Origin: Eledone cirrhosa
Lineage: Eukaryota
Assembly (NCBI GenBank): GCA_964016885.1
Contig: OZ024744.1
Location: 15,686,001-15,750,000 of the forward strand
Length of the DNA stretch: 64,000 nt
Direction: 5' to 3'
Of this stretch, positions 38,332 to 42,726 are shown one piece after another; position 1 is the first letter of the stretch; every line of letters starts with the position of its first letter. The translations under genes were made by a program, and so were the position numbers. The notes below the pieces were generated by a model. The model was not told where the DNA came from, ran no database searches, and saw only the letters and a program-made list of their open reading frames with translations.

Positions 38332-38472
38332 GATGTGAGAAAAATCACAGACCCTCCATCTCAACTCTACTTTTGAAAAGCAGAAGAACTGCGAAACCGG
38401 TAAAGGAACCAAATAAATATATATATATTTTAAAAAATAAGACTCCAGTTGTATTTTCGATTTCATCTTTTT
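38332..38472 (+). repeat. Direct repeat copy 1 (pseudo-LTR-like, hammerhead-bearing)
   Basis: Near-identical to 41008-41148 (offset 2676); begins directly after an (AT)n/(GT)n tract. Confidence 0.93.
38370..38405 (+). ncRNA. Minimal type I hammerhead ribozyme, U3-A8 core variant
   Basis: CUU-UUGAAAA-GCAG(AAGAA)CUGC-GAAA-CCGG-UA-AAG: stem I CUU/AAG, 4-bp stem II, palindromic stem III ACCGGU, GUA triplet (predicted cut after 38402). Confidence 0.78.
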
Positions 38473-38540
38473 TTCTTTATACTTTCACTCGTGTAGGACA
38501 CCTCGGTTATTTTTCATTTTGTAAAAAACCCTCACTTTCT

Positions 38541-38600
38541 AATATATATATATATATTGACATATATATATAACATATATATATTTGCATATACATACAT
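38541..38600. repeat. Imperfect (AT)n tract at the 5' truncation point of the retroelement ORF
   Basis: Direct reading. Confidence 0.85.
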
Positions 38601-39950
38601 ACTTACATTTCCTTTCGCAAACACCCTAACACCGTTCAAACTAAACTTAGGAATGATATTAAGAAATGTAGGTCTTCTAGTAACACTTTCGTTCTTTCCG
38701 ACAAAACTAATAATATTTACGAAGTCGACAACACCACTTTCCGCTACCTGGCCCATAACGCTATTACTTCCAAATATAAGAAAGCTAACCCTATGACCTA
38801 CCACGACATTAATACAGAAGCCAAAGAACTTGCCGCCGCCCTTAAGGTAGATAAGAAGTTACAATCTCTAGTTAAGCGGGAGGCGTTCCTCACCCTGAAA
38901 GATCACAAGGTAGACTTTACTTCTAACCCCACATGTAGACTAATAAACTCGGCACGCACAGATATGGGACTAGTGAGTAAGGCCATACTTAGAAACATAG
39001 TTAAGACCATTAGGACCAAGTCCAACCTGTCCCAGTGGGAGAACAGCGACTCCATAATTAAGTGGTTTAACTCCTTAAAATCCCAAAAAGCGAAGTTCAC
39101 ACAGTTTGACATTGTTGATTTTTACCCGTCGATCTCAGAGATCCTGTTAAACAAAGCGTTGGACTTCGCTACCACTTACACTACCGTTGATAGTTTAGAC
39201 AGAGAAATCATCGCTCACTGCCCAAAAACCCTCCTCTTCAACGACGGAGTAGTCTGGGCAAAAAAGTCAACAACTTCAGACCTATTCGACGTCTCCATGG
39301 TATCGTTTGACAGTGCTGACGTATGTGACTTGGTTGGCCTATTTATTTTAGACATATTACGTGTTAGATTCCCGGACTTCCACACGGGAATATACCGCGA
39401 CGATGGACTGACCTTATCGAGCCATAAAAGTGGTCACGACCTCGACCGGTTTAAAAAAGACTTAGCTTCTACCTTCAATGAGTTAGGACTTAGGATAACA
39501 GTAGCTAACACCCTCTCTAGCGTAGATTTCTTAGACATTAATTCAGACCTTCGCACACACACCTACAGACCCTTCCATAAGCTAAACGAAGAACTCAATT
39601 ACATTCACAAGGACTCATGCCACCTTCCCACTGGTTTTACAAACTTCGTAAATAATATCAGTACTAGAATCTCAAACCTCTCCTCTAATAGGGCTATCTT
39701 TGACAGGGCGGCATCCTACTATAACACGGCGTTAGCTAACAGCGTCTTACGCAACCTATCACTTACTCTCCCACTATCAACAACAGTAATAAGAAAAGAA
39801 AGCGTAACAATAGACAAAGTATCTGCCCCCCCCCCACTTCTCACTCAACGTTAAAACCAATGTAGGCAAAACATTTCTATCCCTCTTAGATAGACACTTT
39901 CCCATAGGTCATAAATACGGCTCCATCTTTAACCGACACAAAGTAAAAGA
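38601..39950 (+). pseudogene. PLE reverse transcriptase (core plus thumb), frameshifted
   Basis: The frame is open from 38601 (ISFRKHPNTVQTKLRNDIKK...SDKTNNIY) into ORF 38793-39854 with LKDHK, NPTCRLIN, FDIVDFYPSI, SFDSADVCDLVG, GIYRDDGL, VDFLDI and YRPFHK motifs. The thumb continues in shifted frames (KKRKRN; [38 protein letters not shown]), with breaks at ~39744, ~39826-39835 and ~39949. Confidence 0.92.
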
Positions 39951-40466
39951 TACTCCTGCGCTAAGAACATGAAGGCCCACATCACCAACAGCCCTAAGAG
40001 CAACACCCCACCAGGGTGCTCAGGTTGTAAGCCTGAAGTTTGTCTCCTTCAACAGCAATGCAATACACTCGGTGTAATTTATGAAGCTGTGGTCACTTCC
40101 AACCGACCAAATCAACCACAGGAGGTCAAATCCTATGTGGGTATGGTGGAGGGCCAATTTAAGGAACGCTTCCTGAACCACCAGTCGACCTTTAGGTACC
40201 CATACAGACGTTCATCCACGAAACTCGCGAGCCACGTATGGTCCCTCAAGGACTCAAGTATAGACTACTCCATTCAATGGAAAGCCACCACTAAGTCCAA
40301 GCCATACGCAAGGGGAAATCCGTTGTGTGGACTATGTATTGATGAACGAATAAATATTCTAAAGAGATTATGCAATAGCGATTGCCTAAACATGAGAAAT
40401 GAATTCTTCACACGTTGTCCTCACGTCTCGAAACATCTCTTACGTAACTACAAACCTCCGGATTGA
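39951..40466 (+). pseudogene. GIY-YIG endonuclease domain of the PLE polyprotein
   Basis: YSCAKNM leads in frame into ORF 39969-40466: Cys cluster CSGC..C..C, GVIYEAVV...SYVG...FKERFLNH, TKLASHVWSLK, CGLCIDE, LNMRNEFFTRCPH. Confidence 0.9.
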
Positions 40467-40634: not shown

Positions 40635-40672
40635 CGAGCTGAGGATCCGCTAAGGTGAAACAATTGTTCTCG
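40635..40672 (+). ncRNA. Type I hammerhead ribozyme in the PLE 3' UTR
   Basis: CGAG-CUGAGGA-UCC(GCUAA)GGU-GAAA-CAAUUG-UU-CUCG: canonical core, stem I CGAG/CUCG extendable by ACCAUG(40622-27)/UAUGGU(40674-79), palindromic stem III, GUU triplet. Confidence 0.8.
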
Positions 40673-41007: not shown

Positions 41008-41341
<334 letters not shown>

Positions 41342-41422
41342 GTTATTCCGGGTTGAATCGGAGGTAACCACAGTAAGTAAGGTACTCAATACATAGCAGA
41401 GTATAACAGTTTTAATATAGAT

Positions 41423-41475
41423 GAGATTCTACAGGACTAGAACTGTTTCATTCATTAGAAATCATCAGGAATCCC
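41423..41475 (-). ncRNA. Type I hammerhead ribozyme (intact), left arm of the palindrome
   Basis: Minus strand: GGGAUUC-CUGAUGA-UUUC(UAAU)GAAU-GAAA-CAG(UUCUAGUC)CUG-UA-GAAUCUC; 7-bp stem I, canonical core, GUA triplet. Confidence 0.85.
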
Positions 41476-41479
41476 TGAT

Positions 41480-41530
41480 GATTCCTGTTGATTTCTAATG
41501 AATGAAACAGTTCTAGTCCTGTAGAATCTC
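41480..41530 (+). ncRNA. Hammerhead ribozyme copy with core mutation (CUGUUGA), probably inactive
   Basis: Same fold as the left arm, but the invariant A6 is U (41488). Confidence 0.7.
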
Positions 41531-41531
41531 A

Positions 41532-41533
<2 letters not shown>

Positions 41534-41567
<34 letters not shown>

Positions 41568-41853: not shown

Positions 41854-42028
41854 TATTTTCATGTCATACGACACAATATCTTGGTATTTTCATGTCATAC
41901 GACAAAATATCTTGGTATTTTCATGTCATACGACACAATATCTTGGTATTTTCATGTCATACGACACAATATCTTGGTATTTTCATGTCATACGACACAA
42001 TATCTTGGTATTTTCATGTCATACGACA
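41854..42028. repeat. 31-bp minisatellite, ~5.6 copies (TATTTTCATGTCATACGACACAATATCTTGG)
   Basis: Units start at 41854, 41885, 41916, 41947, 41978 and 42009; one substitution seen. Confidence 0.97.
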
Positions 42029-42218
42029 GGAAATGTTGAAATCAGCTGACGAGAAAATAACCGTCTTCTCTGCTGTATTCTTAACACGCGTTGTGGCAAA
42101 AAATTACCCTTGTTTTCTTCAACGTTTGTATCAGCTTCTGTTACGTTTGTATCATATGGGAAGCTGCTAAAAAAGCGCTCAACATAAGATATATAAATGT
42201 GATTCAAATATAGATTGC

Positions 42219-42667: not shown

Positions 42668-42726
42668 CATAGGAAGAAGTATGACCCCGACGGCAGAGCT
42701 CTGCCGTCGAGGTCATACTTTTTCTT

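What the first reader, a model, noticed from the sequence alone, without database searches (positions are those of the whole stretch)
41415..41538. Palindromic back-to-back hammerhead pair whose only mismatch is a catalytic-core base
Seen: each 59-bp arm encodes a complete type I hammerhead pointing outward. The single arm difference changes CUGAUGA (minus strand, intact) to CUGUUGA (plus strand). Any transcript would contain a ribozyme plus its antisense, so a long hairpin competes with the catalytic fold. Inference: most simply a minimal PLE insertion with the typical inverted 5' pLTR. It also resembles an ambisense, rod-like ribozyme RNA or a hairpin small-RNA source.
Basis: partly seen in the sequence, partly recalled or inferred. 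Interest (0 to 1): 0.75.

Follow-up and report, generated by a model that had tools for sequence, protein, structure and literature searches.

The report
Head-to-head stump of Penelope retrotransposon
This palindrome is one of more than four thousand back-to-back copies of the front end of a Penelope-like jumping gene in this genome, its single mismatch is likely a chance mutation, and the joints of such copies suggest that each likely formed when both ends of a cut TA repeat copied the element's RNA back to its likely capped start and were joined.

Summary
The palindrome is real: 59-bp arms, 58/59 paired, a 6-nt centre, a type I hammerhead motif in each arm, and A6U in the plus arm. It is not a stand-alone ribozyme device.

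The minus arm continues to 41341 as a 133-nt copy of the pLTR plus tail of a Hydra-clade Penelope-like element (PLE), inserted in (TA)n. An intact 712-aa parent ORF lies in L062.

The genome holds 4,179 such pairs with both cores intact and 43 with this mismatch, nearly all with different centres. The mismatch is neutral decay.

Across copies, arm ends pile up at the inferred transcription start (82 of 147 within 11 nt), often with a non-genomic G. Arms always share subfamily variants (79/79). Exactly one arm carried the tail in 44 of 50 pairs, and both arms in 0 of 50.

Best model (about 0.55): both target strands copy the same uncut, capped RNA from two start sites and join head to head. The rival is single-cDNA snap-back with hairpin opening.

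The layout is published. This scan reached the same reading earlier on other DNA of this genome. No RNA evidence was available.

The parts
41341..41473 (-). Tail-bearing pLTR copy (+1 to +133) of a Hydra-clade Penelope-like element, in the element's sense
   Evidence: 99% identical over 133 nt to the 5' pLTR in front of the intact ORF in L062; the 33-nt tail end has 6,306 exact genomic copies
41425..41473 (-). Intact type I hammerhead motif of the Hydra-PLE pattern; predicted cut between 41430 and 41429
   Evidence: Descriptor hit, 0 of 20,000 shuffles; the same core and stem III pattern as Hydra HHRs in File S2 of PMC8557442; compensatory change in stem I between subfamilies; cleavage not tested
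41341..41414 (-). One-sided extension (tail) between the two inferred reverse-transcription start zones (+59/+66 and +133)
   Evidence: Inverted arms end at +59 (19) or +66 (28) of 57; exactly one arm with tail in 44 of 50 pairs, both in 0 of 50
41474..41479 (.). Junction centre; likely one or two added C, a short snap-back copy (7-bp hairpin 41463-41469/41474-41480) and a 4-nt microhomology join
   Evidence: Sequence; this centre and its reverse complement both occur relative to the tail arm, 8 against 3 of 30 top copies; the mechanism is inferred
41480..41538 (+). Inverted, tail-less pLTR copy (+1 to +59) with the hammerhead motif
41488..41488 (+). A6U point change in the hammerhead core of the inverted arm; independent decay
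   Evidence: 43 such pairs against 4,179 intact pairs, this centre only in the window copy
41304..41340 (.). (TA)n target, left flank
   Evidence: Sequence
41539..41564 (.). (TA)n target, right flank
   Evidence: Sequence

Best explanation
The palindrome is a short head-to-head insertion of the hammerhead-bearing front end of a Hydra-clade Penelope-like retrotransposon into a TA repeat, likely made when both strands of the cut target were extended on the same likely capped, uncut element RNA and the two copies were joined at their 3' ends. Shown: parent element, copy numbers, end positions, tail asymmetry, identity of the two arms, decay of the core base. Inferred: a TATA/Inr promoter starts the RNA just before the hammerhead. 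One strand primes at +133 (tail) and the other at +59 to +66. Both run to the RNA 5' end, where the cap is copied as an extra base, and the ends join by short snap-back and microhomology. The stump lacks the upstream TATA box and is probably inert; any read-through transcript would be a hairpin that blocks the ribozyme.
For: Parent ORF with RWR, DKT, YRDD, CxCx5C, YIG, CxxC and CxH, flanked by a tail-bearing 5' pLTR and a 3' pLTR ending at +66 (clade definition). 57 of 90 tail-anchored copies carry an inverted arm. 82 of 147 arm ends fall in -2..+9, against 7 in each flanking 11-nt bin. A TATA box lies about 30 nt upstream. At -2, read-through copies have C in 97, T in 3 and G in 0 of the first 100 of 5,428, whereas arms with a non-C base there have G in 76, T in 13 and A in 11 of the first 100 of 2,284 (counted by hand). 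In 5 inspected pairs, picked for this feature, both arms end in that G. Arms agree in subfamily variants in 79 of 79 pairs, against 49% if drawn independently. One tail in 44 of 50 pairs, two tails in 0. Centres occur in both orientations. The cDNAs cross the predicted cut site, with 4 of 147 ends at +42..+46. In vitro, a Poseidon PLE extends both target strands, starts at two sites bounding the tail and uses uncut RNA (PMC11167929).
Against: The extra G also equals the complement of stem I, so snap-back could supply it. My test in a second subfamily was inconclusive: G 38, A 53, T 9 of the first 100 of 172 (counted by hand), and 11 of 13 inspected G cases could come from the other arm. Full agreement between arms and the one-tail rule are equally predicted by single-cDNA snap-back with hairpin opening. 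PMC11167929 found no difference in start site between the two strands, which does not by itself explain the asymmetry. One pair with two tails was seen outside the 50 (L166). The transcription start is inferred from DNA only. Raw reads barely cross the window's centre.
Confidence: 0.55

Rival explanations
1. The same PLE origin, but only one cDNA is made: it runs from +133 to the RNA 5' end, folds back on itself, is extended into a hairpin, and the endonuclease opens the hairpin at the AT-rich +59/+66 site on either strand, giving flip and flop centres.
For: Predicts identical arms (79/79), one tail only and both centre orientations. The window's centre contains a 7-bp snap-back hairpin. PMC8557442 attributes the tail to endonuclease resolution of the intermediate.
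Against: Pairs in which both arms end in the extra G with 1-4 nt between them (5 inspected) are simpler as two run-off ends. L062 has a full element ending at +66 with no inverted partner, so +66 behaves as a start site. Some pairs have barely overlapping or non-overlapping arms, such as L113 (+1..+59 against +80..+133) and L057, which would need large loops.
Confidence: 0.3
2. Head-to-head palindromes arise by self-priming on an antisense RNA template, as proposed for rotifer Penelope elements.
For: Proposed in PMC3846280 from junction palindromes.
Against: Arm ends stop sharply about 30 nt downstream of a sense-strand TATA box and often carry a non-genomic G, as expected for a sense, capped template.
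Confidence: 0.06
3. The palindrome is a self-propagating unit (an ambisense rod-like ribozyme RNA, a palindromic MITE, or a regulated intact/dead ribozyme pair).
For: Very stable hairpin; a few centres recur.
Against: Centres are highly variable; arm ends are the parent's ends; the mismatch occurs in about 1% of pairs, on many different centres; core mismatches are not enriched.
Confidence: 0.04
4. Library or assembly fold-back artefact.
For: Independent raw reads give almost no depth across this centre and no contig spans the stretch.
Against: 21 of 65 pairs have arms that differ by point changes, this copy included; outer ends are fixed at +59/+66 and +133; opposite-strand joints near the hammerhead 5' end occur in a few raw reads of another study.
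Confidence: 0.03

Closest known systems
Hydra clade of C-terminal-EN Penelope-like elements (Craig et al. 2021, PMC8557442; passages, section 11 and supplement part 2 of 59 read)
   Same: Single RT-GIY-YIG ORF, DKT, CxCx5C linker, CxxC and CxH, (TA)n targets, hammerheads of the ctgatgat...tgaa / acag...ctgt-a pattern; Penelope-13_HM is listed with a 5'-truncated inverted copy and a hammerhead on each strand.
   Different: RWR in place of RWK; the parent L062 is about 6 kb because of a 3.6-kb microsatellite-filled 3' spacer (the clade is generally under 3 kb); stem III has an 8-nt loop; the tail is about 67-74 nt.
EN+ PLE insertion unit with inverted pLTR, junction palindrome and one-sided tail (PMC3846280 passages; PMC8557442 passages)
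   Same: Head-to-head inverted pLTR and a tail on one side only.
   Different: Here the unit shrinks to 198 bp, occurs thousands of times and is centred on the inferred transcription start; PMC3846280 favours self-priming on an antisense template.
Poseidon PAc of Anolis in vitro (PMC11167929; parts 1-2 of 4 read)
   Same: Two internal start sites bounding the tail, both target strands extended, uncut RNA as the dominant template.
   Different: Another clade; the parts read do not explain inverted repeats and report no strand bias in start site.
L1 twin priming and untemplated 5' G (passages of the review PMC4859970; the primary paper seen only as a reference entry)
   Same: Two target-primed events give an inversion; an untemplated G marks a copied cap.
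   Different: In L1 the two pieces come from different parts of the RNA (recalled); here both arms duplicate the same 5' segment.
Non-LTR retrozymes (PMC7229834 passages; bioRxiv 10.64898/2026.07.22.740005 part 1 of 5)
   Same: Short PLE-related repeats with type I hammerheads.
   Different: Retrozymes are head-to-tail tandems with circular RNA; this unit is head-to-head and dispersed.

Membership tests
Hydra-clade PLE (parent L062) | Single ORF with RT and C-terminal GIY-YIG endonuclease | tested here: met
   712-aa open frame with YRDD at 346 and YIG at 601; Pfam GIY-YIG only E=0.012, below its cut-off
Hydra-clade PLE (parent L062) | RWK motif present, GxKF absent, DKG changed to DKT | tested here: met
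   RWR at 37 (conservative variant), DKT at 115, no GxKF match (definition)
Hydra-clade PLE (parent L062) | CxCx5C linker; CxxC and CxH beside the conserved E and N | tested here: met
   Matches at 565, 665 and 693
Hydra-clade PLE (parent L062) | CCHH motif of other PLE endonucleases absent | not tested
   No alignment to other clades was made
Hydra-clade PLE (parent L062) | Placement in the Hydra clade on an RT tree | not tested
   Reference proteins were seen only as supplement text; likeness judged by eye
Hydra-clade PLE (parent L062) | (TA)n target and hammerhead in the pLTR | tested here: met
   89 of 90 tail ends are followed by TA, 69 by TATA; hammerhead pattern as in File S2
Hydra-clade PLE (parent L062) | Generally shorter than 3 kb (typical, not strict) | tested here: not met
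   The ORF is 2.1 kb but L062 spans about 6 kb with a microsatellite spacer
EN+ PLE inverted-pLTR insertion unit | Inverted 5'-truncated copy head to head, with a tail on one side | tested here: met
Type I hammerhead ribozyme | Three stems around CUGANGA, GAAA and NUH | tested here: met
   Minus arm; the plus arm fails at A6
Type I hammerhead ribozyme | G10.1-C11.1 pair of canonical motifs | tested here: not met
   U and U flank stem II; this is the common form among Hydra PLE hammerheads in File S2, though PMC4209133 calls G-C highly conserved
Type I hammerhead ribozyme | Self-cleavage | not testable with these tools
   The genomic test for ends at the cut site was inconclusive
Non-LTR retrozyme | Head-to-tail tandem monomers | tested here: not met
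   The window copy and the sampled pairs are head to head and dispersed
Palindromic MITE or self-propagating unit | One fixed internal sequence and symmetric ends across copies | tested here: not met
   Variable centres and asymmetric ends

The most novel reading that the evidence does not exclude
These thousands of stumps are a genomic record of how Penelope-like elements build their inverted repeats: a dimeric enzyme primes both strands of a cut TA repeat on one capped RNA that its own hammerhead has not cut, one strand at the tail end and one at the inner site, copies the same 5' segment twice up to the cap, and the ends are joined head to head. This would replace the antisense self-priming model and show that hammerhead cleavage is not needed for these insertions in vivo.
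Probability: 0.45. Interest if true: 0.55.

Novelty: new member of a known kind. Interest (0 to 1): 0.3.

Why it matters
As a single locus it is ordinary: a decayed stump of an abundant retrotransposon. The family matters more. PMC8557442 names the formation of tandem and inverted repeats as an open problem of PLE biology, and the role of the PLE hammerhead is unclear. The junction statistics here give sharp predictions (RNA start, two priming sites, one per strand, uncut template), and an intact parent ORF exists with which to test them in vitro. Practically, back-to-back hammerhead palindromes in TA-rich animal genomes should be read as PLE insertion by-products, not as ambisense ribozyme replicons.

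Tried and rejected
1. Rfam gathering scan of the window: no hit.
2. A DNA search with the tail found nothing because common words are skipped; an exact pattern found 6,306.
3. An early guess that the sequence upstream of the pLTR was the ORF end was wrong; the ORF ends 3.6 kb further up.
4. An early guess of Naiad for both PLEs was dropped: the endonuclease is C-terminal and the motifs fit Hydra.
5. The broken PLE at 38574-40466 is not the parent: 42% protein identity.
6. Pile-up of ends at the ribozyme cut site: 68 matches at +45 against 16 at +42, but 52 of the 68 are joins through a 7-nt stem I identity (counted by hand; 20 contexts viewed). Inconclusive.
7. Cap test in a second subfamily: inconclusive.
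8. One search used a mis-spaced pattern and is not evidence; it was repeated correctly.
9. No RNA holder was listed, so expression, small RNAs and transcript ends are untested.
10. The isolated 134-nt monomer does not fold into the hammerhead as its minimum-energy structure (z -0.54); this says little about activity.
11. Paper searches for an earlier two-cDNA or cap explanation of PLE inversions: 2 unrelated papers; only PMC3846280. None surfaced in the listings or in the parts read; subscription papers are not covered, and bioRxiv supplements are closed.
12. The look-up of earlier findings by sequence returned nothing.

Full report
Observation. The palindrome is present as described. Arms 41415-41473 and 41480-41538 pair at 58 of 59 positions, with a 6-nt centre and one mismatch at 41465/41488. 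The minus arm matches a type I hammerhead descriptor with the cut between 41430 and 41429. It is the only hit in the window, and 0 of 20,000 shuffles of the arm matched. The plus arm carries A6U. Rfam found nothing at gathering level. The whole folds as a -106 kcal/mol hairpin.

It is part of a larger, dispersed repeat. The 124-mer had 1,139 candidates in the 3.0-Gb genome, 40 of them scored. In all 30 fetched top copies one arm runs on to +132-134 and the other stops early, almost always at a TA run. In the window the long arm is on the minus strand and ends at 41341, so the unit is 41341-41538 between two (TA)n runs. Numbering below: +1 is the first base of stem I (41473 on minus, 41480 on plus). 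The 33-nt tail end has 6,306 exact copies. Back-to-back pairs with both cores intact and at most 30 nt between the anchors number 4,179.

The mismatch is decay. The same pattern with A6U on one arm gives 43 pairs, about 1%, on many different centres and in both subfamilies; only the window copy has this centre. Among 65 pairs with both arms complete, 44 are identical and 21 differ. Six of 38 mismatches fall on core positions, against 21% expected by chance (88 pairs found, 79 passed the identity filter, 65 had complete cores; this set includes the 30 copies chosen by likeness to the query).

Parent element. Two of the first 30 tail-anchored copies continue past the tail into an ORF. L062 holds an intact 712-aa frame behind a tail-bearing pLTR, then a 3.6-kb microsatellite spacer and a second pLTR that ends at +66 in (TA)n. 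It has RWR, DKT, YRDD, CxCx5C, YIG, CxxC and CxH and lacks GxKF, matching the Hydra clade definition (PMC8557442 section 11). Pfam gave only a sub-threshold GIY-YIG match, and no tree was built. Hydra hammerheads listed in that paper's File S2 share the U on each side of stem II, and several share the same stem III and cut triplet. A second subfamily here changes one stem I pair on both sides and varies the stem II loop, consistent with a kept structure. PLE hammerheads (PMC4209133, parts 1-2 of 4), inverted 5' copies and one-sided tails (PMC8557442, PMC3846280) are all published.

What the junctions show. I took 90 of the first 100 listed tail matches, all on contig C1 and chosen without regard to their 5' side. 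The other 10 were left out: three were fetched as one larger locus (L063) and seven were not fetched. Fifty-seven carry an inverted arm, ending at +66 (28), +59 (19) or nearby. Of 147 inner ends, 82 lie in -2..+9, 7 in -13..-3, 7 in +10..+20 and 35 further upstream. A TATA box lies about 30 nt upstream in read-through copies, followed by an initiator-like sequence (consensus recalled). At -2, read-through copies have C 97, T 3, G 0 in the first 100 of 5,428. Arms with a non-C base there have G 76, T 13, A 11 in the first 100 of 2,284 (counted by hand). Five pairs, picked because both arms matched, end in that G on both sides with 1-4 nt between. An untemplated 5' G is the accepted sign of a copied cap in L1 and SVA (PMC4859970 passages). 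The two arms share subfamily variants in 79 of 79 pairs, against 49% if independent. In the first 50 centre-anchored pairs, 44 score as one tail, 0 as two and 6 as none; several of those six have a damaged tail on one side. Four centre types occur in both orientations relative to the tail arm: 8/3, 3/3, 4/3 and 1/1 of 30.

Mechanism. The simplest reading is that the RNA starts just before the hammerhead and that both strands of a cut TA repeat are extended on it, one from +133 and one from +59/+66. A monomeric RNA then yields only 59-133 nt of cDNA before the cap, which explains the many minimal stumps; tandem read-through RNA yields long copies such as L062. The two 3' ends join by microhomology, sometimes after a short snap-back, as in the window's centre. 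The cDNAs cross the predicted cut, so the template was uncut. In vitro work on a Poseidon PLE shows both strands extended, two start sites bounding the tail and uncut RNA as template (PMC11167929). All of these steps are inferred from DNA.

Evidence against. The extra G also equals the stem I complement. The test in a subfamily where it does not was inconclusive: G 38, A 53, T 9 of the first 100 of 172, and 11 of 13 inspected G cases could be supplied by the other arm. Single-cDNA snap-back with hairpin opening predicts the same arm identity, one-tail rule and flipped centres; I give it 0.3. The test for ends at the cut site was inconclusive. No RNA run was listed. RAD-seq raw reads from another study show a few opposite-strand joints near the hammerhead's 5' end but almost no depth across the window's centre. 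Reduced representation and loss of hairpins could explain this (inference), but the locus itself is not independently confirmed. An artefact is unlikely because arms have diverged in 21 of 65 pairs and the outer ends are fixed.

Novelty. The element class, its hammerhead and its insertion shape are known. In six paper searches I saw no published two-cDNA, cap-terminated explanation; PMC3846280 favours antisense self-priming. Subscription papers and bioRxiv supplements were not seen and may bear on this. Earlier notes of this scan reach the same reading on other DNA, including a 198-letter piece of this genome with 59-bp arms that is probably the same family. I had recorded my reading before seeing them, and they are not independent evidence. 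Verdict: new member of a known kind, interest 0.3.

Noticed in passing
window 38574-40466 (+), with a hammerhead-like motif at about 40635-40672: A broken PLE of another Hydra-like family (frameshifted RT and GIY-YIG frames, 42% identical to the L062 protein), followed by a hammerhead-like motif with a very short stem II that my descriptor did not accept.
   Followed up: partly
window 38333-38541 and 41008-41140 (+); L037:1660-1840: Two copies of a third short repeat, one with a longer 3' extension, holding what looks by eye like a U3-A8 hammerhead core variant (such a variant is described in PMC4209133). In L037 the same repeat forms a head-to-head palindrome.
   Followed up: partly
window 42679-42717: A 39-bp perfect-looking palindrome next to a TA run; related sequence lies beside several fetched copies (L002, L008, L036). 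Possibly the head-to-head stump of yet another family.
   Followed up: no
window 1-37700 and 43570-64000: Two large tandem arrays, a strongly G-skewed TG-rich minisatellite and a 55-bp satellite, flank a 6-kb island of transposon fragments.
   Followed up: no
L062:1400-4960: The intact parent carries about 3.6 kb of microsatellite between its stop codon and its 3' pLTR, unusual for a clade described as under 3 kb; part of the spacer is shared with other copies.
   Followed up: partly
G000:C1:83679811-83687414: At least eight read-through pLTR matches at about 1.07-kb spacing on one strand, suggesting a head-to-tail tandem array of the pLTR region; forward matches also outnumber reverse ones 3,833 to 1,595, hinting at a larger array elsewhere.
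   Followed up: no
L066 (G000:C2:151353951-151354284); L166: Two palindromic units about 210 bp apart in opposite orientation (L066), and one pair with tails on both arms (L166).
   Followed up: no
window 41864-42030: A short tandem repeat of about 33 bp, five copies.
   Followed up: no
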